This document shows positions 4,715-32,519 of a stretch of 32,519 bases of DNA, one piece after another. The stretch lies in contig CALKJV010000097.1 in assembly GCA_937995505.1 (NCBI GenBank), forward strand, positions 1 to 32,519, given 5' to 3'. The notes below the pieces were generated by a model that was not told where the DNA came from, ran no database searches, and worked only from the letters and a program-made list of their open reading frames with translations. Position numbers and translations under genes: made by a program. Position 1 is the stretch's first letter, and the number at the start of each line of letters is the position of its first letter. This stretch comes from an uncultured Bacteroidia bacterium (GTDB taxonomy: Bacteria > Bacteroidota > Bacteroidia > SpSt-205).

Positions 4715-6635
4715 AGAGGAGTTCTGTGCGTCGGTTGAGGGCCCTGCCGGCCTCTGTACGATTGTCTGCCACGGGCCGAGACGCTCCATAGCCCTGAGCT
4801 CGTATTCGTTGCGCGCTAATCCCTCTCTGTACCAGAAACTGCCGCACGGCTTCTGCCCGACGCTGAGAAAGGGCCTGATTGTAAGCTTCGGAGCCTGAGC
4901 CATCCGTATGGCCTTGCACTTCTACAATCCAGGAAGGATTTGCCTTAAGTAGCCGAACTACCTCTTCCAGCTCAACCTCAGACTCAGGCCGCAAGTCAGC
5001 TTTGTCAAAGTCAAAAAATACATTGCGTAAGGTGAGCCGGCTGCCTTTCTGCAAGCGCTCCAAAGGCACCAGGAGCTCATAAGCGGTATCAGCTCGCGAC
5101 AGATCAAAGTGTCCACTATAAAAGAGATAGCCCTTAGCTTTTGCGAAGAGGGCGTAGCGCTGGCCTAAGGGCAAAGAGGTTAGAAACTCCCCAGAGGCCT
5201 GGTTTGCGGTCAGGCTGCGGATGGTATCTCGGGTAGTTACCGAGACGATGAGGACTTCTGCGGGCACAGCCTGCCGGGTCTGAGCATCTACTACTCGCCC
5301 TCGCACATAAGTAGCGACCTGCTGAGGGCGGATTTCCGGCCAGAGCGGGAAGGCGTAAATATCTTCTTTTCCATAGCCCCCTTCTCGCTCCAGCGCAATG
5401 TAGCCTATCTCCCCGCGAGCATCCACGCAAAGGGTCTGCTCATCCGCCGAAGTATTAAGCGGATAGCCTAAGTTTTTAGGTTGGGTCCAGCCTGTATCTG
5501 TAAGATAAGCTACAAAAATATCCTGCCCGCCCATTCCGGGGTGGTAGTCGGAGGCGAAATACAGCGTACGGCCATCTGCCGCTATCATGGGGCTGTATTC
5601 ATTGCCGGGCGTGTTGATGGAAGGGCCGAGGTTAACAGGCTTTTGCCAGCGGCCATCCCGCCAATCGGAGTACCAGATGTCGCTTCCACCGAGCCCACCC
5701 GGCCGGCCAGAAGCGAAGTATAGTCTCCGCCGATCGTGGGTAAGGGAGGGATGCGATTCCCATGCGGAAGTGTTAATCTCAGGTCCTAAGTTTTGTGGGG
5801 GCTGCCAGTCTGTACCCATCAGCTCTGAGAAGTACAAATCACACGAGCCCCTCCCATCTATGCGGTCGCACAGGGTGATAAACGCCCATTGCCCGTCTGC
5901 AGAAAAGAAGGCTGCCCCTTCATTTTTGGGGGAATTTATCGGGGGGCCGAGCGGCTGCGCGGGTCGCCAGCGACTGGTAGCTTCGTCTCGCTCTGCCCAA
6001 TATAAGTCCTCGTCTGGGCCTTGCAGGGGATTGGGAGGGGCGTCCGGTTTCGGTCGCCGAGAAGTAAAGTACAAACGCCGCCCATCTGCCGTGAGGCTAG
6101 GAAGGTACTCTTCGTAAGGGCTATTTACCTCGGGACCCATATTTTTTGGGCGAAAAGGCACAGGGTTTTTGATGAGTTGGGCGGCACTTAAGCTCTGGCT
6201 TAGAAGGAGAGCGCCTTCGTCTTGAAGGCTACGAGGCATGTGCCCCACGGCTACCCTCACGAATTCCTTCCACACAGCAGCCGCAGAGTCATAAACCATT
6301 TGGGCCATGTAGGCTTTCCCTCGGAAATACAAAGCCCAAGCTCGTCCCGCTGCTGATCGCCCCCGAAGCCCTTCTATGCGTCGCGCCACCTCCGCAGCAG
6401 CCCCATACTCCTGCTGCGCCAGGTGCAGCTTGCCTTTGAGGATCCAGGCGTCTTCGTACGAAGGCTCCAAGCGGAGGGCTTCCTCAACAGAGCTCATCGC
6501 TTGGGCGATTTGCCTCGCCTGGATAGAGCGAATAGCACTCAGATACAAATCGTAAGCGCGCTTGGAGATTCCCTTGGGCGGCGTACCCTGCGCAAAGAGT
6601 AGCCCTATCCCCAATACCCAAAATGCCCGTCTCAT
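4698..6635 (-). CDS. OmpA-family envelope protein with N-terminal TPR, TolB-like (PD40) beta-propeller repeats and a C-terminal OmpA peptidoglycan-binding domain
   Basis: The internal ATG at 6635 gives the signal peptide MRRAFWVLGIGLLFAQG and forms an ATGA overlap with the queE stop. Repeated DG..LYF.S.R....G..DI(Y/W) PD40-like units are present. The C-terminus reads NVFFDFDKADLRPES...VEVQGHTDGSGSEAYNQALSQRRAEAV...GYGASRPVADNRTEAGRALNRRTEL, a classic OmpA_C. Confidence 0.88.
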   Translation of the reverse strand: MRRAFWVLGIGLLFAQGTPPKGISKRAYDLYLSAIRSIQARQIAQAMSSVEEALRLEPSYEDAWILKGKLHLAQQEYGAAAEVARRIEGLRGRSAAGRAWALYFRGKAYMAQMVYDSAAAVWKEFVRVAVGHMPRSLQDEGALLLSQSLSAAQLIKNPVPFRPKNMGPEVNSPYEEYLPSLTADGRRLYFTSRRPKPDAPPNPLQGPDEDLYWAERDEATSRWRPAQPLGPPINSPKNEGAAFFSADGQWAFITLCDRIDGRGSCDLYFSELMGTDWQPPQNLGPEINTSAWESHPSLTHDRRRLYFASGRPGGLGGSDIWYSDWRDGRWQKPVNLGPSINTPGNEYSPMIAADGRTLYFASDYHPGMGGQDIFVAYLTDTGWTQPKNLGYPLNTSADEQTLCVDARGEIGYIALEREGGYGKEDIYAFPLWPEIRPQQVATYVRGRVVDAQTRQAVPAEVLIVSVTTRDTIRSLTANQASGEFLTSLPLGQRYALFAKAKGYLFYSGHFDLSRADTAYELLVPLERLQKGSRLTLRNVFFDFDKADLRPESEVELEEVVRLLKANPSWIVEVQGHTDGSGSEAYNQALSQRRAEAVRQFLVQRGISAQRIRAQGYGASRPVADNRTEAGRALNRRTELLFIGAD

Positions 6636-7243
6636 GGAATAGCAAGATAACGATGCCATTGCATACTGAGGCGCCAATGGGGGTTTTCTTTGAGGTAAGC
6701 GAGAATCCACTCTAAGGCAGCGGATTGGTATGCCTGGGGTTGGAGGAAGGCGGGTAGGTTAGGCTTGCAGCGAGCCCGCTGGGCCTCTGCCCACAGAAGG
6801 TCGCTCCGACTATGAACTACTACCTTCAGTTCGTGCGCAAGCTCGTAATAAACAGGATCGGGCTCGCGAAAGCGCTTGGGGGAAAAGGTAATCCAGTCCG
6901 GAAGGGTAGAAGGGGGCGCATGCGCTCCAGAAGTCTCCAGCTGGATAAATAGTCCCACCGCCCGCAAAGTCTGTATAAGTGCCGATAGAGAATGTAGAGT
7001 AGGCTCGCCGCCCGTGAGTACCACGTGTCGGGTAGGAGTCTGCGTTACCCATGCGAGCATTTCTGCGGGCGTGTAGGTAGGCCAGCCCTCCTGGGGCCAG
7101 CTATGCCGAGTATCACACCATGAACACCCGACATCGCATCCCCCCAGCCGGAGAAAGTACGCGGGCTTCCCCGCCCAGAAGCCTTCTCCCTGTAAGCTAT
7201 AAAAGTGCTCTACGATAGGATACACTGGAGCAAGCTTAGTCAT
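6632..7243 (-). CDS. queE: 7-carboxy-7-deazaguanine synthase (radical SAM, queuosine pathway)
   Basis: IVEHFYSLQGEGFWAGKPAYFLRLGGCDVGCSWCDT is the QueE N-terminal signature including the CxxxCxxC-type cluster. Size is ~200 aa. Confidence 0.88.
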   Translation of the reverse strand: MTKLAPVYPIVEHFYSLQGEGFWAGKPAYFLRLGGCDVGCSWCDTRHSWPQEGWPTYTPAEMLAWVTQTPTRHVVLTGGEPTLHSLSALIQTLRAVGLFIQLETSGAHAPPSTLPDWITFSPKRFREPDPVYYELAHELKVVVHSRSDLLWAEAQRARCKPNLPAFLQPQAYQSAALEWILAYLKENPHWRLSMQWHRYLAIP

Positions 7244-17045: not shown

Positions 17046-18904
17046 TGGTGCCTATCTGCCTTACCCTTTCTAGGGCTCTCTCTCTGGGCGCGGGGGATCG
17101 GCGCAAACCTCCTCCTAGGGACTATCAGCTTAGAGGGGGCGGAGGCCTCTGGGGGCTACTTGGAAGGACTCTCTGGGGAATTGGGGCCCTTCTCTCTGCG
17201 CAAAACACCCAAATACTAGACGGGGTAGCCGACACGGCAGGACACCCTCCCGTGTACCAACCCGCGTATTTTCCTTGGTACGACCCGACGGATACTTTTG
17301 CTGGGCTAGTGCTGCGAGCAGGACCTCTCAAGCCCTACCTACGGTGGCAATACGGTGCACCTCTCTATGAGGAAACTGCCACCGCCTTTCCGCCCCTCTC
17401 TCAAACGCCCTATCTCTTGCGCAGCTTGCCTTTAGTGAAAACTAGCAAGCCTTACACTCGGGTGCGCTTCGACCAGTCAAGCCGCCGTACGCAGCTCCTC
17501 TCCGTGTACCACGCTCAGTACGTCCGTTCTGCGAAGCAGCCCTTAGAGGGCGGTTTGAGTACAGCTTATCGCCGCCGTACCCGAGAAGGGGAATACCTTA
17601 GTGAAACGGTAGACCATTACGGCGTTGGGATAGGAGGCTTTGTACGGTGGCGAGAACAGTTGTCGCTTCGCGCCGAAACAGGCTGGAATCAGCTCCAAGA
17701 TCTCTTCCATGGGGGCATCCTCTATGATACGACCCGCTCTCCGTGGACGGCGTTTGAGAAGCAAAGTCAACGCGTGCGTATCTCGGGGCTTCGTTGGCGT
17801 CGCTGGTATCGCTACCTGCGTGGGGAAGCCGCTCTCAAGCTTACCCCGACCCTCTGGTTGCAACTGGAGGCCAGACTCACCGAAGACCGCCTACAATCGG
17901 AAAGTCCCTCTCCCCAAATACCACTCTCACCTTTCTGGGGAGATAGCACTGAGCTGCGGTGGGGCATTCGCCAGAAAGAACAAACCGTAGCCGTCTCGCT
18001 CCACGAGACTACAAGAGGCTATCTACGCGCAGGAACCGAAAGGCTCCAATTGGATACCGACACGATCTTCCTGCCCTGGGAGCTCAGAAGCTTTCTGGTA
18101 GAAGGAGGGCTTTGGCTGGGGGCTTTGCACCTATCAGGCCGATATCAATGGTGGCTTCAGACAAGCAGTCCCCAAGCCCGCAAGGAAGCCTCAGCCGTAT
18201 GGCACAGGGGCTCCTATGAGCTAGGGGTAGCCTATCAATCTCAACCCCTCCCATGGATAGCCTATCAGGCCCAGTTTTGGCGGGCGAACTTTCCCCCTAA
18301 CGAGACCCGTACCCGCTTTTGGGCGGCCTATCGCTTGGGAGAAGGCGACTCCACTCTCCCACCGCTGCAGCTCACTGCATGGGGCAGCCTTTGGAAGCCT
18401 GCTTGGCTCTGGAACGCTCCTCCGCGTGCGGGGGATGGATTCTGGGGCTATGGCCTGACCCTCCAAGGCGGCAAACAGGGCCGCCTCGTGGGCTTACTCA
18501 GTGGACTCACCCTCCAAGCCCTCACACCCCAGGACCCTACGGATCGCCCCTGGACCGAAGTTCTCCCCCTTCTAAGTGGATGGATGCAGGTCTTTTTGCG
18601 GTGGCAACTGCCGGAGAAACCCCCTGTCTATCAGCTCGGGGCACGCATATCCGGTTTCACTCCATTTCGGCTTTTAGGGCTGGAGCCCCATTTCGCTACC
18701 CCTTACTGGGGCAATTTCCCGCGTCAGCCAGCTTATGTATGGCTAGATCCCTACTTCATAGTGCACATTCGGCGCGTAATGGTCTATCTGCGCGTAGAGC
18801 ACGCAACAGAGGGAGTTTTGGCGCAAGGGTATTACCTGATGGCGTGGTATCCGATGCCGGGTCGCGCCTTTTCTTTCGGGGTGCAGTGGGATATCTATAA
18901 CTGA
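17045..18904 (+). CDS. putative outer-membrane beta-barrel protein ('putative porin'-like), function unknown
   Basis: ~619 aa, very W/Y/R-rich with alternating strand-like segments. It ends ...FSFGVQWDIYN, an aromatic-rich terminus typical of OM barrels. GTG start overlaps the PNP stop (TAGTG). The hydrophobic segment LWGIGALLSAQN sits ~40 aa in. Confidence 0.5.
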   Translation: MVPICLTLSRALSLGAGDRRKPPPRDYQLRGGGGLWGLLGRTLWGIGALLSAQNTQILDGVADTAGHPPVYQPAYFPWYDPTDTFAGLVLRAGPLKPYLRWQYGAPLYEETATAFPPLSQTPYLLRSLPLVKTSKPYTRVRFDQSSRRTQLLSVYHAQYVRSAKQPLEGGLSTAYRRRTREGEYLSETVDHYGVGIGGFVRWREQLSLRAETGWNQLQDLFHGGILYDTTRSPWTAFEKQSQRVRISGLRWRRWYRYLRGEAALKLTPTLWLQLEARLTEDRLQSESPSPQIPLSPFWGDSTELRWGIRQKEQTVAVSLHETTRGYLRAGTERLQLDTDTIFLPWELRSFLVEGGLWLGALHLSGRYQWWLQTSSPQARKEASAVWHRGSYELGVAYQSQPLPWIAYQAQFWRANFPPNETRTRFWAAYRLGEGDSTLPPLQLTAWGSLWKPAWLWNAPPRAGDGFWGYGLTLQGGKQGRLVGLLSGLTLQALTPQDPTDRPWTEVLPLLSGWMQVFLRWQLPEKPPVYQLGARISGFTPFRLLGLEPHFATPYWGNFPRQPAYVWLDPYFIVHIRRVMVYLRVEHATEGVLAQGYYLMAWYPMPGRAFSFGVQWDIYN

Positions 18905-19965
18905 AGCACTTCCAGCAGCTCTTCAAAAGCCGCATCAGGAAGGGCAGGGAAATTAGCTATGCGAAAGAAGAGGTCTTTCTGCTCGCCGTAGCCCCAGCCC
19001 AGATAAAGCCCCTCCGCCTCAGCTCGGCTACGGAGCTTCTGGCCTATTTCTGCACTAGGCCAGCGCAGCGCTAATACGGTAGGCGAACGGTACTCTTGCC
19101 TCTGTAGTGGGGGAAAGCCCCGTTCCTCCAAAGCCTTATAGAGCCTGTCAGCTCGGGCGCGCAGGGTCGCTTCTCCTCCCTGCACAGGGGGGCGCTGTGG
19201 AAGGCCTTCTGCGAGGAGATATAGGCCAATGAGGTTGGGCGTGAAAGGCGGTTCGTGGGCTTCGGCCCGCTGAATAAGCCGACTAAGGGAATTGTAACGC
19301 AGGGCTGGAAGCTCACGCATCTCTCGTCGGGCCTCTGGTCCCAGGGCTACCACGGCTAGCCCCGGCGGTAACCCAAAGCCTTTCTGTACAGAAGCAAAGA
19401 CTATATCCACTTGCTCCCACGGCAGGGAGATAGCCCCTAGGCTGCTGGTCGCATCTACCGCAGTAAGCGCCCGAGGAAAGGCCTCGCGCAGAAACCGCCA
19501 CTCCGGAAGGGTAGCCCCTACCGAGGTTTCTACCTGTACTATCCCTACAAAGCCCACGCTCGCGTACTTCTGGGCTATGCTTTCGCGTTGAGAGGGCCAG
19601 GGCTGCTCAGGGGAAATAGCTACCCGATACGCAAAGCCAGAGGCAGCCGCCTGGAGCCCGTACCACCTTTCGCCAAAAGCGCCCTGCGTGAGGTGCAGAC
19701 TCGCCTGCTCTGCCGTAGCATCTACCAGCACTTGCCAGGCCTCTGTCGCCGAACTGACAAAAAACACCAGCCACCCTTCTGGCAAGCCTAAGTGCTCTGC
19801 AACGGCCAACTGCGCCCGAGCAAAAAGGCTTTTCCAGACAGGATCGCGGTGATACCGAGAAAAAAGCCCCTCCGCCAAAGCTCGCTGTAAAAGCGGCTCT
19901 ACTTGGGGATGCAGTTGCGACGGACCCGGCTGGAAGGAATACCGAATCTTCACCGCAGCGTCCAC
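18895..19965 (-). CDS. class-V PLP-dependent aminotransferase, phosphoserine-aminotransferase-like
   Basis: The N-terminal FQPGPSQLHPQV resembles SerC F-x-x-GP-x-x-LP. ASVQKGFGLPPGLAVV resembles the SerC PLP-lysine motif (QKN-GP-G). 356 aa, GTG start. Confidence 0.6.
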   Translation of the reverse strand: MDAAVKIRYSFQPGPSQLHPQVEPLLQRALAEGLFSRYHRDPVWKSLFARAQLAVAEHLGLPEGWLVFFVSSATEAWQVLVDATAEQASLHLTQGAFGERWYGLQAAASGFAYRVAISPEQPWPSQRESIAQKYASVGFVGIVQVETSVGATLPEWRFLREAFPRALTAVDATSSLGAISLPWEQVDIVFASVQKGFGLPPGLAVVALGPEARREMRELPALRYNSLSRLIQRAEAHEPPFTPNLIGLYLLAEGLPQRPPVQGGEATLRARADRLYKALEERGFPPLQRQEYRSPTVLALRWPSAEIGQKLRSRAEAEGLYLGWGYGEQKDLFFRIANFPALPDAAFEELLEVLQL

Positions 19966-20022: not shown

Positions 20023-20796
20023 TTATTTCCCTTGCCAGGTAGCGGCGCGCTTCTCCATAAAGGCTCGCATGCCTTCTTTCTGATCCTCTGTGGCGAAAAG
20101 TAAATAGAAGTTTCGCCGCTCAAAGTGCAGCCCTTCTTCCAGCGAGAGCTCGTAGACTTTGTTGATAGACTGTTTTGCGAGCTGTACGGCGAGGGGGGGC
20201 ATGGCGGCGATTTCAGCAGCGAGCTTCAAGGCCTCTTCTAGGTATAGCTCCACAGGTACCACCCGGCTCACAAGTCCCCAGGCCTCGGCTTGCTGGGCGG
20301 AAAAGAAGCGGCCCGTAAGCACATACTCCATTGCGCGGGATTTGCCGATAGCCCGAGTAAGGCGCTGCGTACCCCCAGCCCCTGGGATAACCCCTATCTT
20401 TATTTCCGGCTGTCCAAACTGCGCCGTCTCACTAGCTATAATGATATCGCATAGCATGGCCAGCTCACAGCCGCCGCCTAAGGCATAACCGCTTACAGCA
20501 GCAATGAGCGGTTTTTTGAGGCGTTTGATCTGGTCCCATCGCTGAAACTGGTCCAGCTTGAGCATATCTACGGCGCTGTCGCTTGCCATCTCCTTGATGT
20601 CTGCGCCCGCTGCAAAGGCGCGTTCGTTGCCTGTAAGCACGATGGCTCGTACGCTTTCCTCTTGGTCCAAGGCCAGAAGAGTATCTGTTAGCTGAGCTAC
20701 TAAGGCGCGATTGAGGGCATTGAGGCTCTCAGGACGGTTGAGCCGCACTAAGGCCACCCCCGGCCGTACCTCGCGTTCCACAATAAGCACTTCCAT
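20023..20796 (-). CDS. enoyl-CoA hydratase/isomerase (crotonase) family protein
   Basis: The internal ATG at 20796 gives MEVLIVEREVRPGVALVRLNRPESLNALN. FAAGADIKEM and GYALGGGCELAMLCD are crotonase oxyanion-hole motifs. A TATTTTTG box lies 4 nt upstream. Confidence 0.88.
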   Translation of the reverse strand: MEVLIVEREVRPGVALVRLNRPESLNALNRALVAQLTDTLLALDQEESVRAIVLTGNERAFAAGADIKEMASDSAVDMLKLDQFQRWDQIKRLKKPLIAAVSGYALGGGCELAMLCDIIIASETAQFGQPEIKIGVIPGAGGTQRLTRAIGKSRAMEYVLTGRFFSAQQAEAWGLVSRVVPVELYLEEALKLAAEIAAMPPLAVQLAKQSINKVYELSLEEGLHFERRNFYLLFATEDQKEGMRAFMEKRAATWQGK

Positions 20797-20800
20797 GCCG

Positions 20801-20808
20801 CAAAAATA
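20801..20808 (-). promoter_or_regulatory. candidate -7 box TATTTTTG, 4 nt upstream of the crotonase ATG
   Basis: The complement of caaaaata at 20801-20808 exactly fits TAnnTTTG. Confidence 0.4.
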
Positions 20809-20853
20809 CCCCAAACCCGCCACCCTTTGCCCAGGGCCATTTTCCACTAAGTA

Positions 20854-20884
20854 TGCACAAAGCTTTGTATCTTTGTTTGCACAA
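20854..20884. repeat. operator-like element: perfect 12-bp palindrome ACAAAGCTTTGT (20857-20868) flanked by the direct repeat TGCACAA (20854-20860 and 20878-20884)
   Basis: Read directly from gtaTGCACAAAGCTTTGTatctttgttTGCACAAtctATG. It overlaps the TATCTTTG box. Confidence 0.45.
20868..20875 (+). promoter_or_regulatory. candidate -7 box TATCTTTG, 12 nt upstream of the ATG at 20888
   Basis: Exact TAnnTTTG at the head of the six-gene plus-strand chain. Confidence 0.4.
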
Positions 20885-20887
20885 TCT

Positions 20888-23800
20888 ATGGGGTTCTCCT
20901 TGCGTGAGCGGCTTATCGCCTTCCGAGCAAAATACTACCGAGTCCAGATCTTGCGGGGCATTTTCCTGGTGGGATTATGGAGTGTGGGATGCTTTGTGCT
21001 CTTTGCGCTTTCGGAAGGGCTTTTCTGGTGGGAAGTACCGGTTCGGCTCTTTTTATGGGCTATCTGGGTTGGTGGGAGCCTCTTCGCCGTAGGCCGATGG
21101 ATTCTGTACCCTCTACTTCAGTACGGCTTGCGCTTGCGGGGTTACCTTTCGGATGAAGAAGCCGCTCGCTGGATTGGCCGCCGCCTTCCTGAAGTGCGAG
21201 ACAAACTCCTCAATGCCCTCCAGCTTAGCCGGCAGGATATTTCCGAGAACGCCGCCATCGCCCTGGCCATTGAAGAGCGCATGCGGCAGCTTACTGTAAT
21301 TCCCTGGGAGCTTTCGCTGCCGCAGCGAGAGGTACGTCGGTATGCCTTAATTTTCTTGTTAATCACAGCCGGAGCGGCTGGGCTATGGCTCGCCAGCCCC
21401 ACGACCTTCCGTGGGGGGACTTTCCGGTTGCTGCGTCCCAATCAGGTTTTCGCTCGCCCCCTACCCTACACCCTCTCTCTCGTAGGTATCCGCCCCTTCT
21501 ACCGCCAAGGCGAACCTTTAGAAGCTATTATCCTTCTCTCCGGCGAGAAGCTCCCCGCTCAACTGTACGCAGTAGGGGCTACGGGCCCTCTACCCCTGCG
21601 CCGAGAGTCTCCGTCCCGATATGCGCTCTCATTGCCGTCCGTACAGGAGAGTTTCCTTCTGCGGATAGAAACTGAAGGGCAGCTCCTAGGCAGCTACCCC
21701 ATCACGGTGCATCGACCACCTGTACTTCGCAACTTCACCCTCCGCTGTGAATACCCTACTTATACCCGACTCGCCCCCGACACGCTCTCACAACCCATAG
21801 CACGCGTGCTGTATGGGTCTTACCTCTCGGTACAATTTGACATAGAGAGCGAACGCCCCTACCAATTAGAGGCGGAAGGCCTTTCCCTCCGTTCGTCAGG
21901 CGCTACTAGATGGACCGGAAAGCTACTCGCTGCAAGCTCAAATAGCTACGCTCTCATTGTGCGCGACTCCCTTTTTAGCGATACGCTCCGACTCACTGTG
22001 GAAGTGTATCCCGATTATCATCCTTCTGTGCAGCTATTTAGTGAGTGGTTCAATGCCGAGACCTGGGAACAGGGCCTTCGCATGCGGCTTATGGATGATT
22101 TTGGGTTCACTCGGGCCATGCTGTGGTACCGCATAGCTGAAAGTCCAACCCCAAGCCGGGTGCAAGAGCAGTTTCGGGCGAAGCCCCTCTCTATCTCGAC
22201 CGAAGCTTCGCAAGAGAAGTTTTATTCCATCGCTTGGCAGAGCTTAGGGATCCAGACCGGCGATAAGGTGGAATACTATGTAGAAGCCTGGGATAATGAC
22301 GCTCTGCGGGGTCCCAAGTCTAGCCGAAGCATTCTTTACACCTTAGAGCCTACCAATGACGCCCAAAAGCAGGAGATTTTTGCCCAGCTACAAGACTCCC
22401 TACTAAGCGAGCTTCAGAAAATTCATGATAAACTAAAAGAACTTGCCTCTACATCGGATTTATCTAGGAAACTTCGTGAGACTACGGCCCTATCTGAGCA
22501 GTTTCGTTCGGTACGCAGTGAGCTTCGAGCTTTACAGCGGTTAGCCGCTGAGCAGCAGCTATACACGCCCGAGCTTTTAGAGCGTATGCGACAGCTGGAG
22601 AAGGTTTTAGAGTCTATTGACCCGCAGCGGCCCGAACGCTTACTCTCACAGCTCCTGCAGCCCCAATCCGATAGCCTGCGGCGCAGCCAGCTGCAGGAGG
22701 AATTGGAGCGAGCCTACCGAGAGTGGGAAGAGAAGATGGCGCGTTTAGAGGCGCTCTCCCCTCAGTACCAGCAGGAACGGAAGTTAGAGGAGCTCATGAC
22801 GCGTCTTTCGGAGCTTTCCGAGCGCCAACAGGGTCTTGCAAAGCTACCTGACTCACTTCAGCATCAGCCAGGGACACAGGGACCGCAAGAGCGCCTTCTA
22901 GAAGAGACCCAGCAGCTGCGCCGGCAGGTAGACTCCCTTCGTCAGCAGACGCCAGAAAGCGCTCTACGAGACAGCCTCGGCCGTTCCGTCCAGTACCTTC
23001 AAGACGCGCTGAAGTCCATGCAAAAATCTCTTGAGCAAATGCAGCAAGGGGGTTCCCCACAGGAAGCCCAGCAAAATGCTGCGCAAAACTTAGAGCGAGC
23101 GCTTTCGGCGATGGACCAGGGGCAGCAGCAGGCTCAAAGCTCCCAAGAGGCAGAAGAGTACGAAGCTCTGCGCCTCCTCCTCAAGGGTATCCTTTCTCTC
23201 TCTTTCCGTCAAGAAGAAGCCCGAAAAAAAGCCCAGGAAAGTGCGCCCTTCCTTGCGAGTGCTAAGCCGCTGGTGCAAGAGCAGCTCGCTATTCGGCGGG
23301 ATTACGCTCAGGTGCAGGAAACTCTATTTGCTCTGGCAGGGCGATCACCAGTGATTGAAGAAGCTATTTTAGACTTACTGCGGGATATGGATCGGTACTT
23401 TCGGGGGCTATCGTTTCAGGAGGCGGAGCCGCTTATGCGGCGCCAGCAGTACATCCTGCAAGGGCTCAATCGGCTAGCCAATCTTATGACAGAGCTTTTA
23501 GCGCAGTTAGAGGAGAATCAGCGTAATCGGCAGCAGAGGGCAGGGGGAGGGGCTTGTCAGCGGCCGTTTCGGGTGCGGCGGAAAGGCCAAGCAGGTCAAC
23601 CCAGTAGCAGCCCGCAGAAATCACAGGGGCAATCCTCCAGACCTCAGCCGGGCCCTAAAAAGGAAGGGCAAGCCCCTTCGCTCCAACAGCTCCAGCAGCA
23701 GCTCAATGAGGCTCTAGACCGGGCCCTCCAGCCCAACCCTGCCTCTGAGAATCCAGGGGGGATTTCCCCCAGCGAACGGGCACGGCTCTCGGCCCAACAA

Positions 23801-24166
23801 GAGCTCATACGGTTACAACTCCAAGAGCGCCTCCGTCAAAGCCCCGGCGACGCTGGTCAGCTCCAGCAGCTTATTGAAGACATGCAGAAGGCCGAAAAGG
23901 AAATTTTAGGAGGTTCGCTCACCCGAGACCGGCTCCTACGCCAGCAGCAAATTCTCACGCGCCTTTTAGATTACGAACGCTCTCAGCGCGAAAGGGAAAT
24001 AGATCCCACGCGCGAGTCGCGTACAGCCCAGCAGTTTTTCCAACGCACGACAGGTATCTATCCCATTCCCAGCGCTAAGCCTACCCCAGCAACCAGTACA
24101 CCAGCCCTTTGGTTGTATCAGCTACCGTATCAGCGCCTAATTGAAACTTACTTTCAAACGCCATGA
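20888..24166 (+). CDS. large (~1092 aa) membrane-anchored coiled-coil/Q-rich protein, DUF4175-like (family assignment from memory only)
   Basis: The track ORF begins at 20711, but that part is antisense to the crotonase gene. The ATG at 20888 gives MGFSLRERLIAFRAKYYRVQILRGIFLVGLWSVGCFVLFAL followed by further TM helices. A beta-rich middle region (..YYVEAWDNDALRGPKSSRS..) follows, then ~550 aa of heptad-like, Q/E/L/R-rich sequence with a low-complexity S/P/Q/G stretch. Confidence 0.75.
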   Translation: MGFSLRERLIAFRAKYYRVQILRGIFLVGLWSVGCFVLFALSEGLFWWEVPVRLFLWAIWVGGSLFAVGRWILYPLLQYGLRLRGYLSDEEAARWIGRRLPEVRDKLLNALQLSRQDISENAAIALAIEERMRQLTVIPWELSLPQREVRRYALIFLLITAGAAGLWLASPTTFRGGTFRLLRPNQVFARPLPYTLSLVGIRPFYRQGEPLEAIILLSGEKLPAQLYAVGATGPLPLRRESPSRYALSLPSVQESFLLRIETEGQLLGSYPITVHRPPVLRNFTLRCEYPTYTRLAPDTLSQPIARVLYGSYLSVQFDIESERPYQLEAEGLSLRSSGATRWTGKLLAASSNSYALIVRDSLFSDTLRLTVEVYPDYHPSVQLFSEWFNAETWEQGLRMRLMDDFGFTRAMLWYRIAESPTPSRVQEQFRAKPLSISTEASQEKFYSIAWQSLGIQTGDKVEYYVEAWDNDALRGPKSSRSILYTLEPTNDAQKQEIFAQLQDSLLSELQKIHDKLKELASTSDLSRKLRETTALSEQFRSVRSELRALQRLAAEQQLYTPELLERMRQLEKVLESIDPQRPERLLSQLLQPQSDSLRRSQLQEELERAYREWEEKMARLEALSPQYQQERKLEELMTRLSELSERQQGLAKLPDSLQHQPGTQGPQERLLEETQQLRRQVDSLRQQTPESALRDSLGRSVQYLQDALKSMQKSLEQMQQGGSPQEAQQNAAQNLERALSAMDQGQQQAQSSQEAEEYEALRLLLKGILSLSFRQEEARKKAQESAPFLASAKPLVQEQLAIRRDYAQVQETLFALAGRSPVIEEAILDLLRDMDRYFRGLSFQEAEPLMRRQQYILQGLNRLANLMTELLAQLEENQRNRQQRAGGGACQRPFRVRRKGQAGQPSSSPQKSQGQSSRPQPGPKKEGQAPSLQQLQQQLNEALDRALQPNPASENPGGISPSERARLSAQQELIRLQLQERLRQSPGDAGQLQQLIEDMQKAEKEILGGSLTRDRLLRQQQILTRLLDYERSQREREIDPTRESRTAQQFFQRTTGIYPIPSAKPTPATSTPALWLYQLPYQRLIETYFQTP

Positions 24167-29030: not shown

Positions 29031-29104
29031 CGGGGAGTAGCTCAGCCCGGTAGAGCACTAGTTTAGGGGACTAGGGGCCGTGGGTTCAAATCCCGCCTCC
29101 CCGA
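29031..29104 (+). tRNA. tRNA-Pro. The hand-folded anticodon reads AGG (A34 at 29065). No encoded CCA.
   Basis: Manual cloverleaf. Acceptor CGGGGAG/CTCCCCG with C1:G72 and A73 (bacterial Pro identity). D-arm GCTC-AGCCCGGTA-GAGC. Anticodon stem CTAGT/ACTAG with loop TTAGGGG (U33, A34 G35 G36, G37). Variable loop GGGCC. T-arm GTGGG-TTCAAAT-CCCGC. Confidence 0.85.
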
Positions 29105-29175
29105 CAAGGAGAGCTAAAGCGCTCAGGTGTTCTAAAAACCCTTTGGCAAAGCTATAAGCCGTGGGGGAGGAGCTG

Positions 29176-29189: not shown

Positions 29190-30701
29190 ATGGAAGTCCC
29201 CAACTGGCTCCTCCCCCCACCCCTGCATACCCTGCTTCGCAGACTCCACAAAGCTTTAGCTCCAGAGAGAAAAGCGGCCTTGAGGGCACGGAAGTCTACC
29301 TCAGGGATCTATTCCCAGCCCAGCCAAGCTATCCGCTCCAGCCAGTGGCAGGCACGCCCCCTTCCCCCACCTCTCCAAAAGCGCTATGTAGAGATTACGG
29401 GGCCTGCCGAGCCTAAGCTCATCATCAACGCGCTGCACTCTGGCGCCGATGCCTTCATGGCTGACCTAGAAGATGCCCTTACGCCGCACTGGGAGCGCCA
29501 GCTCCAAGCCCAAGAAGCTCTCTATCACGCCGCTCGCGGACAGCTCTGCTTCACCAGTCCAGAAGGAAAGGAATACCGCTTAGACCCCGCCTACCCTACC
29601 CTCTTACTGGCGCGCCCACGCGGCCTTCACTTAGTAGAGCGACACTATTGCGTTGACGGCAAGCCCATCGCAGCCAGTTTCTTTGATACCGCCGTCTATC
29701 TCTATCATAACGCAGAAGCTTTACTTCGGCGCGGCGCTGGCCCCTACCTCTATATTCCCAAAATAGAATCTCCCGCTGAGGCTCGGGTTTGGGCGCATCT
29801 CCTCACCCTCTGCGAAGAAACCCTGGGCCTGCCCCTTGGCACCATACGAGTAACGGTGCTCATTGAGACCTTCCCCGCTGCTTTGCAGGTAGAGGAAATT
29901 GTATATGAGCTTCGCGAGCACATCGCTGGGCTCAACGCTGGCCGCTGGGATTACCTTTTTAGCGTCATCAAAGCGCACCAGCACCAACGGCATTTCGTAC
30001 TCCCCGAACGGGAGGCCCTTACCATGGAAGTGCCCTTCCTGCGCGCCTACGCCGAAGAGGTGGTACGAGCTGCCCACCGTAGGGGTATTTTAGCCATTGG
30101 GGGCATGTCGGCTTTCATTCCCGACCGAAAAAACCCAGAGCTAAACGCTCAGGCCTTCGCCCGGGTGGAAAAAGACAAGCGTCGCGAAATAGCGCAAGGA
30201 TTTGATGGAGCTTGGGTAGCGCACCCCGACCTCGTACCTCTCGTAAGAGACCTATTTGAAAAAGGTCTCCAAAGCCGGCCCAACCAGCTGGAGAAATTGC
30301 CCAGCCCCCCTGCAACTCGGGAACAGCTCTGCGCCTTCCCTTCTCTGGCGAAGCCGCTCCCCCTCCAAAGCGTAAAGCGTAACATAGAGGTTTTTCTCTT
30401 CTACCTCACCGCTTGGCTGCAAGGGCAGGGCGCCGTGGCGCTTTTTCACCTTATGGAAGATACCGCTACGGCCGAAATTGCCCGCGCCCAACTGTGGCAA
30501 TGGCTTTTCGCTGAAAAGCCCCCTCTCACCGACAGAGGCGCCCCTATCAGCGTAGCCCTCTACGAAAGCCTCATCGCTGAGGCCCTCCAAACCTACCCAA
30601 ACATCTCCGCCCAGGCTGCCCGGCTCCTACGAGAGCTTGTGTACAGTCCCACTTTTATTCCCTTCCTCACGAGTTATGCTTACCGAAGATACGTACCGTA
30701 A
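29190..30701 (+). CDS. aceB: malate synthase A
   Basis: [37 protein letters not shown] parallels E. coli AceB [37 protein letters not shown]. ~503 aa. I prefer the ATG at 29190 over the TTG at 29181. Confidence 0.9.
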
Positions 30702-31995
30702 CCGTTCCTGGGCTGAGCGAGCAGCAGCCCTCAAGCGAAGCTGGCAAGAAGATCCTCGCTGGAAAGGTGTCGTACGCCCTTATGCCGCCGAAGAGGTGAT
30801 TCGCCTGCGGGGGTCGTATGACTTCGCCTATCCGATTGCGCAGCGAGGCGCAGAAAAATTATGGGACGCCCTCCACACTCGCCCATGGGTGGCTGGCCTG
30901 GGCGCCCTCACAGGATTACAAGCCGTACAAGAGGTAGAGGCGGGTCTACCTTCTATCTATGTGAGTGGTTGGCAGGTCGCCGCGGATGCTAACCTCGCCG
31001 CCCAAACCTATCCTGACCAGAGTCTTTATCCCGTAGAGAGCGTACCTTCCCTCGTGCGCCGCATCAATAACGCCCTCCTACGCGCCGACCAAATAGAGTT
31101 TCTGCAAAACCCTGAAAAAGGCCCTTCTCGCGACTGGCTCGTCCCTATCGTGGCTGATGCTGAAGCGGGCTTCGGTGGTAACCTCAACGCCTTTGAGCTA
31201 ATGAAAATGATGATTGAAGCCGGGGCGGCCGGCGTGCACTTTGAGGACCAGCTCTCTTCCGCAAAAAAGTGCGGCCATCTCGGCGGCAAAGTGCTCGTCC
31301 CCACCAAAGAAGCTATCCAGAAACTCATCGCTGCACGCCTCGCCGCCGACGTGCTGGGCGTACCCACTGTACTTATCGCTCGCACAGATGCCAATAGCGC
31401 CACTCTTATCACCACGGATGCCGATCCGTATGATGAGCCTTTTATTCTGCGGGACCGGGGCCGCTCGTCCGAAGGGTTCTTCTATGTGCGTTCGGGGCTG
31501 GAAGCCGCCATCGCCCGCGGCTTGGCGTATGCGCCGTACGCAGACCTGCTATGGTGCGAGACAAGCACCCCCGACCTCGGCGAAGCCAAAGAATTTGCCC
31601 AAGCTATCCATGAGAAGTTCCCTGGTAAGCTCCTGGCCTATAACTGCTCCCCTTCCTTCAACTGGAAAAAACACCTCTCCGAAAGCGAAATGCTCACCTT
31701 CCGAGAAAAGCTTGCCGAAATGGGCTACAAGTATCAGTTTATCACGCTAGCAGGCTTCCATGCACTCAATACGAGCATGTTTGAGCTGTCGCGGGCTTAC
31801 TTAGAGCGAGGCATGGCGGGCTATGCAGAACTGCAAGAGCGGGAATTTGCCCTGCAAGCTCACGGCTTCCGAGCGGTCAAGCATCAAGCTTTTGTGGGCA
31901 CAGAGTATTTTGATGCTGTGCAGCTTACCGTTACCGCAGGCCAAAGCTCCCTCGCCGCCATGGACGGGTCTACCGAAAAGGCGCAGTTTCACTGA
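30676..31995 (+). CDS. aceA: isocitrate lyase
   Basis: Catalytic loop [23 protein letters not shown], and the ICL-family C-terminus. The ATG at 30676 ([19 protein letters not shown]...) overlaps the aceB 3' end by 26 nt. Confidence 0.93.
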
Positions 31996-32035
31996 GACTT
32001 TGCCTGAGACCGGAGGGGCCTCTCTTATCCAAACC

Positions 32036-32519
32036 CTACCCTTTTACTGAATATTCGCCGCCCCGGCGCCGAAACTTCTCTTCGTCCACCTGGACCTCCT
32101 TAAGAGCCGCCTCTACTCCCACTTCGAGAATGTGCGGAGAGTACTTGTGTCCTTCCTTGTTTGCAGAATAAAAACGTCCACGAAGATCCATCATTAGATA
32201 AGAGTCTGAGATATGCTCGGTATCCTCGGACACTAGGTCTGTGTGACTCTCGTTGAGGCCTTCCCGATTCCTTTCTACGTAAGCCCGGAACTCTAAATCA
32301 GATACTCTCACTGCATCAAACTCCTTGTCGTTTTGATACTTAACGGGGCTCACCTGTAAAACCTTCCACCTTTTTGGTCGCATGAGGTTGATAAAATCTG
32401 TCATCTTCTCATCTTTATTGAACCTACATACCACGGTGTTTATCTTGAGGAAAATTCCGTTTTGGTGGCATACTTCGGCAAAACTCATTATCTTATCCTG
32501 CGAGATGACACCAGTTTTT
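32036..32519 (-). CDS. prokaryotic viperin (pVip), radical-SAM antiviral nucleotide dehydratase: C-terminal ~161 codons only (the N-terminal radical-SAM half lies beyond the window end)
   Basis: The frame stays open to the last base (…KTGVISQDKIMSFAEV…), so the track's M at 32488 is not the true start. It aligns to the human viperin C-terminal region as I recall it: KINTVVCRFN / KINSVINRFN; RWKVLQ / RWKVFQ; DSYLMMDLRGRF / DSYLILDEYMRF; HILEVGVEAAL / SILDVGVEEAI; VDEEKFRRRGGEY / FDEKMFLKRGGKY. GC is ~45% against ~57% in the neighbours. Confidence 0.85.
   Translation of the reverse strand, partial: KTGVISQDKIMSFAEVCHQNGIFLKINTVVCRFNKDEKMTDFINLMRPKRWKVLQVSPVKYQNDKEFDAVRVSDLEFRAYVERNREGLNESHTDLVSEDTEHISDSYLMMDLRGRFYSANKEGHKYSPHILEVGVEAALKEVQVDEEKFRRRGGEYSVKG

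What the first reader, a model, noticed from the sequence alone, without database searches (positions are those of the whole stretch)
32036..32519. Truncated prokaryotic viperin (pVip) at the window edge, probably the border of a defence island
The last 484 nt encode, on the minus strand, a protein collinear with the C-terminal half of viperin/RSAD2. Four separate conserved blocks match (RWKV-Q, DSYL--D----F, ILxVGVExA, F-RRGG-Y). Prokaryotic viperins are established anti-phage enzymes that convert NTPs into 3'-deoxy-3',4'-didehydro-NTP chain terminators. They usually sit in defence islands, often next to nucleotide kinases or other defence genes.

The catalytic CxxxCxxC half and everything upstream of the gene are outside this window. 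The genuinely interesting neighbourhood (partner genes, possibly uncharacterised systems) lies just beyond base 32519. The host appears to be a GC-rich Bacteroidota-like organism, so the substrate specificity (CTP/GTP/UTP) is unknown.
Basis: partly seen in the sequence, partly recalled or inferred. Interest (0 to 1): 0.72.

Follow-up and report, generated by a model that had tools for sequence, protein, structure and literature searches.

The report
Cut-off bacterial viperin (pVip) gene
The last 483 bases of the window encode the C-terminal half of a bacterial viperin, a known type of anti-phage enzyme, cut off by the window edge; it is a real but ordinary, rather divergent family member with one unusual residue in its substrate pocket.

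Summary
Window 32036-32518 (minus strand) is 160 sense codons plus a stop, open to the window edge. It matches the C-terminal half of the viperin family: NCBIfam NF038283 E 5.7e-41, PADLOC pVip E 1e-37, solved viperin structures E 1e-23 to 1e-17. MoaA reaches only E 3e-3. About 140 N-terminal residues, including the CxxxCxxC motif, lie outside the window and could not be recovered. No collection holds this DNA, and no protein is more than 51% identical. The closest full-length relatives pass the curated viperin cut-off and carry CNxxCxFC.

The host is a Bacteroidia bacterium related to hot-spring MAGs. The rest of the window is housekeeping and partly syntenic with those relatives. None of the 80 relatives has a viperin next to aceA, and the fragment has 45.7% GC against 55.8% elsewhere. 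So it is an accessory, probably horizontally acquired gene at a variable locus. Whether a defence island follows cannot be told.

One oddity: the nucleobase-pocket position (mouse Cys314, usually Asn in prokaryotes) is Ala here and Ser in its five closest relatives, so the substrate preference is unpredictable.

Verdict: new member of a known kind, low to moderate interest.

The parts
32036..32518 (-). C-terminal 160 codons plus stop (32036-32038) of a viperin-family radical SAM gene (pVip). The reading frame is open at the window edge, and about 139 N-terminal codons lie outside the window.
   Evidence: Translation. NF038283 E 5.7e-41 over profile positions 134-280/281. PADLOC pVip E 1e-37. 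PDB viperins E 1e-23 to 1e-17. Aligns to residues 140-298 of the 307-aa L081 viperin.
32126..32176 (-). Beta-8 loop (nucleobase-binding loop), fragment residues R115-L131, 'RFYSANKEGHKYSPHIL'. Ala119 (codon 32162-32164) occupies the position of mouse Cys314, and His124 that of mouse Lys319.
   Evidence: Ungapped alignment to mouse viperin chains 5vsl/6q2p. Role of these positions from Shomar et al. preprint 10.1101/2023.09.13.557418. Residue census in relatives: Asn 42, Ser 4, Asp 3 of 49 metagenome loci; Asn 44, Ser 13, Asp 10, Cys 2, Thr 1 of 70 database proteins; Ala in none of them, only in the window.
32363..32446 (-). Conserved nucleotide/triphosphate-pocket blocks 'LKINTVV' (K25, N27 = mouse K220, N222) and 'RWKVLQV' (R50, K52 = mouse R245, K247). 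All are intact.
   Evidence: These columns are invariant or nearly so in alignment A1. Lys220, Asn222 and Lys247 are named as residues contacting a docked ligand in mouse RSAD2 in PMC11970327.
31996..32035 (.). 40-nt spacer between the convergent stop codons of aceA (+) and the viperin gene (-). No terminator-like hairpin was detected.
   Evidence: Sequence; terminator and promoter scan found nothing.
30676..31995 (+). Isocitrate lyase (aceA), the last core gene before the viperin. It marks the edge of the conserved, syntenic region.
   Evidence: 81-85% identical to aceA of the eight closest Bacteroidia MAGs (L001-L008). Upstream synteny with L005 and L002.

Best explanation
The window ends inside an apparently intact gene for a prokaryotic viperin (pVip), a single-protein anti-phage defence enzyme.

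The full protein would be about 300 aa. Its missing N-terminal half would carry the CxxxCxxC [4Fe-4S]/SAM site. The C-terminal half seen here forms the nucleotide-binding part of the partial TIM barrel.

By analogy with characterised viperins, it would use a 5'-deoxyadenosyl radical to dehydrate a ribonucleoside triphosphate to its 3'-deoxy-3',4'-didehydro (ddh) analogue. That analogue terminates phage RNA synthesis.

The gene is an accessory, probably horizontally acquired insertion. It lies downstream of aceA in the chromosome of a Bacteroidia bacterium related to hot-spring MAGs.

Shown here: family membership of the C-terminal half, intactness of the visible part, accessory status and deviating composition. 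Inferred: presence of the radical-SAM half, ddhNTP synthesis and anti-phage function.

The preferred nucleotide cannot be predicted, because the usual pocket Asn is replaced by Ala.
For: - 160 sense codons without a stop, running to the window edge.
- Strong, specific profile hits: NF038283 at 140.5 bits over half the profile. The five closest full-length relatives score 285-310 bits against a cut-off of 180, so the fragment scores at the density expected of a true member.
- PADLOC pVip hits at E 1e-37.
- An exhaustive search of 1.84 billion representatives found 921 relatives. Every full-length one that was scanned is viperin-like.
- Of the 80 related metagenome ORFs, 71 carry a CxxxCxxC motif, nearly always CNxxCxFC. 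Five of the nine without it are cut by a contig end.
- Residues equivalent to mouse K220, N222, R245, K247, Y302 and R347 are all conserved.
- Accessory status: no viperin within 10 kb of aceA in 80 related genomes.
- The syntenic relatives L005 and L002 have thiL-nadA, or a met-gene insert followed by thiL-nadA, at this position.
- GC is 45.7% against 55.8%, and GC3 is 52.5% against about 60%.
- Closest clade members lie in defence contexts: L082 has an RtcR-like CARF regulator, the pVip and a VakA kinase; L179 has PD-T4-3 nearby.
Against: - The catalytic half, the start codon and the promoter are not in the window, so intactness is unproven.
- NF038283's curated cut-off (180 bits) is not reached by the fragment alone.
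- The pocket residue that is Asn in most prokaryotic viperins is Ala here.
- The C-terminal 'RGGxYxW' Trp is absent: the protein ends RRGGEYSVKG.
- No relative is closer than 51% identity, so no direct functional transfer from a tested pVip is possible.
- No defence gene is visible elsewhere in the window.
Confidence: 0.78

Rival explanations
1. It is a viperin pseudogene or remnant. Only the C-terminal part survives, and the N-terminal half is disrupted or missing in the genome, not merely outside the window.
For: - The gene abuts a window or contig end, and nothing upstream can be seen.
- Some related ORFs in metagenomes lack CxxxCxxC, for example L093, L117 and L139.
- The conserved pocket Asn and the terminal Trp are lost.
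Against: - 160 codons are free of stops in a region of 46% GC.
- All residues that are invariant across the family alignment are retained.
- The bit-score density equals that of intact relatives.
- The Ser/Ala pocket and the missing Trp are shared with intact full-length clade members L081, L082 and P0013, so they are clade traits, not decay.
Confidence: 0.1
2. It is a viperin-family enzyme with a diverged role: a different substrate or product, or a non-defence use of ddh-nucleotides. This would be a functionally distinct Ser/Ala-pocket subclade.
For: - In an NJ tree of 225 C-terminal halves the window groups with only five sequences. All of them have Ser, and the window Ala, where prokaryotic viperins normally have Asn.
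- Neither Ser nor Ala appears among the pocket classes described by Shomar et al. (Asn, Cys/Lys, Arg, Asp), in the main text or in the part of the supplement that is held.
- Two clade members are followed by a conserved 120-aa ORF of unknown function.
Against: - The triphosphate- and ribose-side residues are conserved.
- An Asn follows immediately (Ala119-Asn120) and might substitute within a flexible loop.
- Clade member L082 has the classical viperin-associated kinase, and L179 a PD-T4-3 neighbour. Both point to ordinary defence use.
Confidence: 0.1
3. It is another radical-SAM enzyme (MoaA-like or a peptide maturase) misread as viperin.
For: There is a weak MoaA hit at E 3e-3. Pfam finds no domain in the fragment.
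Against: - Viperin models score 124 bits higher than MoaA.
- The C-terminal extension is the family-specific part of viperins, and it is the part that matches.
- The nine PDB hits with E below 1e-16 are all viperins or viperin-like enzymes; the only two others are chance-level (E 0.26 and 0.87).
- The absence of a Pfam hit is expected, because PF04055 covers the N-terminal half. In L081 it spans residues 9-176.
Confidence: 0.02

Closest known systems
Prokaryotic viperins (pVips; Bernheim et al. 2021; NCBIfam NF038283; PADLOC pVip models PDLC02903-02905)
   Same: The C-terminal half is collinear with the family profile to its last position. The conserved blocks KINTVV, RWKVLQV, SYxMxD..GRF, ILEVGV and RGGxY are all present. 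The gene is accessory with deviating GC. The best PADLOC model is 'viperins not associated with kinases', which fits the absence of a kinase downstream.
   Different: - It is at most 51% identical to any sequence found.
- It has Ala instead of the typical Asn at the nucleobase-pocket position. Its small clade has Ser.
- It has no Trp after RGGxY.
- The N-terminal radical-SAM half is unseen.
Animal viperin RSAD2 (mouse structures 5VSL, 6Q2P)
   Same: It aligns without gaps to mouse residues about 208-351 at E 7e-19. Equivalents of K220, N222, R245, K247, Y302 and R347 are conserved.
   Different: The CTP-selective pair Cys314/Lys319 is Ala/His here. The gene is bacterial, so the ER-targeting N-terminal helix of the animal protein is not expected (own knowledge). 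Overall identity is low.
Viperin-kinase modules (pVip + VakA/CMPK2-like kinase), as in locus L082
   Same: L082's viperin is the second-closest relative at 49% identity and belongs to the same Ser/Ala-pocket clade.
   Different: In the window the gene downstream of the viperin is the convergent aceA, so there is no kinase on that side. Whether a kinase or an RtcR-like regulator lies upstream is unknown.
MoaA (GTP 3',8-cyclase), the nearest non-viperin radical-SAM family
   Same: It shares the radical-SAM partial-barrel fold. There is a weak local match at E 3e-3.
   Different: It scores 16.5 bits against 140.5 bits for viperin. The viperin-specific C-terminal blocks are absent from MoaA models.

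Membership tests
Viperin family / pVip (NF038283) | Profile match above the curated whole-protein cut-off (180 bits) | tested here: inconclusive
   The fragment scores 140.5 bits over profile positions 134-280 only. The five closest full-length relatives score 285-310 bits. The same score density over a full-length protein would therefore pass, but the full protein is not available.
Viperin family / pVip (NF038283) | Viperin-specific C-terminal extension, with conserved blocks through to RGGxY | tested here: met
   The fragment is collinear to the end of the NF038283, TIGR04278 and PADLOC profiles and to solved viperins. 29 invariant columns are shared with ten relatives.
Viperin family / pVip (NF038283) | Radical-SAM CxxxCxxC [4Fe-4S] motif in the N-terminal half | not testable with these tools
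   The motif lies beyond base 32519. The DNA is absent from genome, metagenome and viral collections and from the protein collections. Of 80 related metagenome ORFs, 71 have the motif.
Viperin family / pVip (NF038283) | Scores better than MoaA and other radical-SAM families | tested here: met
   Viperin scores 140.5 bits and MoaA 16.5 bits. The nine PDB hits with E below 1e-16 are all viperins or viperin-like enzymes; the two others are at E 0.26 and 0.87.
Viperin family / pVip (NF038283) | Nucleotide-pocket residues (mouse K220, N222, R245, K247, Y302, R347) | tested here: met
   Fragment residues K25, N27, R50, K52, Y107 and R152 align to them without gaps. That these residues contact CTP is from own knowledge of the mouse viperin structures. 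One search adds only that K220, N222 and K247 contact a docked ligand.
Prokaryotic 'promiscuous-pocket' viperins (Shomar et al.) | Asn at the position of mouse Cys314 in the beta-8 loop | tested here: not met
   Ala119 occupies that position and Asn120 follows it. Asn is found in 42 of 49 metagenome relatives and 44 of 70 database proteins. Ala is found in none of them.
CTP-selective (animal-type) viperins | The Cys314/Lys319 pair | tested here: not met
   The pair is Ala119/His124 in the window.
pVip as an anti-phage defence system | ddhNTP production and protection against phage | not testable with these tools
   This needs expression of the full-length gene, phage challenge and LC-MS.
Defence island | Clustering with other defence genes within about 10-20 kb | tested here: inconclusive
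   The 32 kb inside the window hold only housekeeping genes. The other side is not available. Relatives L082 and L179 have PADLOC-recognised neighbours.

The most novel reading that the evidence does not exclude
The window's viperin and its five closest relatives (L081, L082, P0001, P0011, P0013) form a sparsely sampled subclade. In it the nucleobase-contacting Asn of prokaryotic viperins is replaced by Ser, or by Ala in the window. This could give a substrate preference or product spectrum not seen in characterised pVips. In some members it comes with a conserved 120-aa partner protein of unknown function.
Probability: 0.2. Interest if true: 0.45.

Novelty: new member of a known kind. Interest (0 to 1): 0.25.

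Why it matters
Viperins are among the few immune enzymes shared by bacteria and animals, and their ddh-nucleotide products are of interest as antivirals. This fragment adds a divergent member, below 51% identity to anything in very large collections, from a Bacteroidia lineage related to hot-spring MAGs. It also flags a small clade with a non-canonical pocket residue, which is a cheap target for substrate-specificity work. Beyond that it is an ordinary, already well-understood kind of defence gene. The potentially interesting neighbourhood is not in the data.

Tried and rejected
1. Extending the contig. None of these found the source or a near-identical sequence:
- An exact 30-mer from the fragment was absent from genome contigs and metagenome contigs.
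- An exact-protein look-up of aceA found nothing.
- Word-indexed and exhaustive protein searches found nothing above 49% identity.
- Degenerate-pattern scans of metagenome and viral contigs found at best 51% and 43% identity.

2. Looking for the missing N-terminal half elsewhere in the window, in case of circularity or a split gene. tblastn with full-length relatives found only the edge fragment. It also gave a weak hit to an unrelated housekeeping radical-SAM ORF at 6632-7243.

3. Using aceA as an anchor to read the equivalent locus in relatives. None of the 80 loci carries a viperin. This gave the 'empty site' picture but not the missing sequence.

4. A terminator and promoter scan of 31800-32519 found nothing.

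5. Identifying the newest PDB hits (9dfn and related entries) in the literature. No paper in the library cites them.

6. Looking for a 'Ser' or 'Ala' pocket class in Shomar et al. None appears in the main text or in the stored, truncated part of Supplementary Table 3.

7. The MoaA reading was rejected on score.

8. Structure prediction was not attempted. Half a barrel without its cluster-binding half would give no usable model.

Full report
**Observation.** The minus strand of window 32036-32518 translates into 160 sense codons ending in a stop at 32036-32038. The frame is still open at the window edge. The ORF list shows a 150-aa ORF from an internal ATG at 32488, but homology to viperins already starts at residue 4 of the fragment. 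The gene therefore continues past base 32519.

They align to solved viperin structures:
- RWKVLQV
- DSYLMMD..GRF
- ILEVGVEAALKE
- FRRRGGEY

**Family assignment.**
- NCBIfam gives NF038283 'viperin family antiviral radical SAM protein' at E 5.7e-41. This is 140.5 bits over profile positions 134-280 of 281.
- The animal viperin model TIGR04278 scores E 3.3e-22, and MoaA only E 3e-3.
- The three PADLOC pVip models score E 1e-37 to 7e-35. The best is 'viperins not associated with kinases'.
- Pfam finds nothing. This is expected, because PF04055 covers the N-terminal half; in the L081 relative it spans residues 9-176.
- Nine PDB sequences match at E 1e-23 to 3e-17, and all are viperins or viperin-like enzymes; the two other listed hits are at chance level (E 0.26, 0.87).
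- The fragment alone is below the curated cut-off of 180 bits. However, the five closest full-length relatives score 285-310 bits, so the fragment's score density is that of a true member.
- Aligned to the 307-aa L081 protein, the fragment covers residues 140-298. About 139 residues are missing.

**What could not be seen.** The CxxxCxxC half, the start codon and everything upstream are outside the window. I tried several ways to recover them:
- An exact 30-mer was searched in the genome and metagenome collections.
- An exact-protein look-up was made for the neighbouring aceA.
- A word-indexed search was run over 5.8 billion proteins; the best hit was 48% identical.
- An exhaustive HMMER search was run over 1.84 billion representatives. 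It found 921 relatives, the best 49% identical.
- Pattern scans were run on metagenome contigs (best 51%, L081) and viral contigs (best 43%).

The source is not in any of these collections, and the protein has no close relative. Among the 80 related metagenome ORFs, 71 carry a CxxxCxxC motif, nearly always CNxxCxFC. Five of the nine without it are cut by a contig end. The missing half is therefore expected to carry the motif, but that is an inference.

**Host and locus.**
- aceA (30676-31995) is 81-85% identical to aceA of the eight closest Bacteroidia MAGs, L001-L008 (record titles include SKYB95, SKW77 and KatS3mg025; that these are hot-spring MAGs is from my own knowledge). More distant hits are Hymenobacter and Pontibacter.
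- The genes from the 1151-aa ORF (20711-24166) through YbeY, MnmG, an M23 peptidase, PrmC, tRNA-Pro and AceB to AceA are syntenic with L005 and L002.
- The rest of the window is housekeeping: RecO, polyphosphate kinase, a PP-loop ATPase (TilS-type), BioB, LpxK, a purine nucleoside phosphorylase-type enzyme and an enoyl-CoA hydratase. None of these is a family I recognise as a defence gene (they were scanned with Pfam, not PADLOC).
- None of the 80 aceA loci has a viperin within 10 kb.
- Downstream of aceA, L005 and L011 have thiL-nadA immediately. L002 has a 4.8-kb insert first, carrying methionine-pathway genes and a secreted protein.
- The window contains no thiL or nadA.
- The fragment has 45.7% GC against 55.8% for the rest of the window. 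Its GC3 is 52.5% against 56-61% for neighbouring genes.

Together this shows an accessory, probably horizontally acquired gene at a variable position directly after the core gene aceA. The two genes are convergent, with 40 nt between their stop codons and no recognisable terminator.

**Mechanism.** The alignment to mouse viperin (chains 5vsl/6q2p; chain index plus 44 equals the mouse residue number) is ungapped. Fragment residue n corresponds to mouse residue n+195. The correspondences are:

| Fragment | Mouse viperin |
|---|---|
| K25 | K220 |
| N27 | N222 |
| R50 | R245 |
| K52 | K247 |
| Y107 | Y302 |
| R152 | R347 |

All of these are conserved in the window and invariant or nearly so among relatives. 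K220, N222 and K247 are named as contacting a docked ligand in mouse RSAD2 in PMC11970327. Their role in CTP binding is from my own knowledge of the mouse viperin-CTP structures.

The most likely function is the family one. The enzyme would carry out radical-SAM dehydration of an NTP to a 3'-deoxy-3',4'-didehydro-NTP, which acts as a chain terminator against phage transcription (established for pVips; own knowledge; preprint 10.1101/2023.09.13.557418). That step is inferred, not shown.

**The one unusual feature.** Shomar et al. locate nucleobase recognition in the beta-8 loop. They describe these pocket classes:
- Cys314/Lys319 in CTP-selective animal viperins.
- An Arg in UTP-selective fungal viperins.
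- Asn at the Cys314 position in most prokaryotic viperins ('promiscuous pocket').
- Rarely Asp.

In the window this position is Ala119, followed by Asn120. The Lys319 position is His124. I counted the residue at the Cys314 position in related sequences:

| Residue | 49 metagenome ORFs | 70 database proteins |
|---|---|---|
| Asn | 42 | 44 |
| Ser | 4 | 13 |
| Asp | 3 | 10 |
| Cys | 0 | 2 |
| Thr | 0 | 1 |
| Ala | 0 | 0 |

Ala occurs only in the window. A neighbour-joining tree of 225 C-terminal halves places the window in a six-member clade with L081, L082, P0001, P0011 and P0013, all of which have Ser. These proteins also lack the Trp of the usual RGGxYxW ending. Both features occur in intact full-length clade members, so they are clade traits rather than decay. 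Neither Ser nor Ala appears as a pocket class in the paper's text or in the stored part of its table. The substrate preference is therefore genuinely open.

**Contexts of the closest relatives.**
- L082: an RtcR-like CARF-AAA-HTH regulator (PADLOC E 3e-80), a 98-aa ORF, the viperin, and a viperin-associated kinase (pVip-kinase model E 3e-63; VakA E 5e-25).
- L179: the viperin, a 118-aa ORF, and a PD-T4-3 homologue 1.3 kb away.
- L178: the viperin followed by a 122-aa ORF that is 40% identical to the one in L179 (E 5e-33), with no Pfam or PADLOC hit.
- L081: a PAS-SpoIIE phosphatase lies downstream.

In the window the downstream neighbour is aceA, so any partner gene would have to lie upstream, outside the window.

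**Verdict.** The defence-island reading is plausible but untestable here, and no island extends into the window. This is a new, divergent member of a known kind. Interest is low to moderate. It rests on the atypical pocket residue and the sparse clade, not on the gene as such.

Noticed in passing
window 29031-29105 (+); also L005 8351-8425 and L002 7398-7472: This is a tRNA-Pro gene with anticodon AGG (A at position 34), lying between prmC and aceB. It is conserved at the same place in two syntenic Bacteroidia MAGs. A34 tRNAs other than tRNA-Arg(ACG) are uncommon in bacteria (own knowledge). This might imply inosine formation on a Pro tRNA.
   Followed up: partly
L178 6862-7230 (+) and L179 1376-1732 (+): A conserved ORF of about 120 aa lies directly downstream of the viperin in two of the window's closest clade members. 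The two copies are 40% identical (E 5e-33). There is no Pfam or PADLOC hit. The ORF is absent from the window and from all other fetched loci. It may be an uncharacterised viperin partner.
   Followed up: partly
L082 171-3882: A viperin plus viperin-associated kinase (VakA-like) sits next to a divergently transcribed RtcR-like CARF-AAA-HTH sigma-54 activator (PADLOC E 3e-80) and a 98-aa ORF. This suggests that viperin expression might be controlled by a signal-sensing regulator.
   Followed up: partly
window 31996 onward, compared with L005 11314-13379, L011 2779-4826 and L002 10394-17347: The position just after aceA is variable among related Bacteroidia. L005 and L011 have thiL-nadA immediately. 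L002 has a 4.8-kb insert first (homoserine dehydrogenase, acyltransferase and sulfhydrylase-like genes and a secreted protein). The window has the viperin.
   Followed up: partly
window 6632-7243 (-): A second, unrelated 203-aa radical-SAM ORF (PF04055, E 1.3e-8) lies next to polyphosphate kinase. It gives a weak tblastn hit to the N-terminal half of viperins (E 3e-5) but is a housekeeping-type enzyme, not the missing half.
   Followed up: partly
window 20711-24166 (+) and 18895-19965 (-): The large 1151-aa ORF is conserved at 64% identity in L005 and L002; the 356-aa ORF was not compared with relatives. Neither has a Pfam hit at E <= 1e-6. Their functions are unknown.
   Followed up: no
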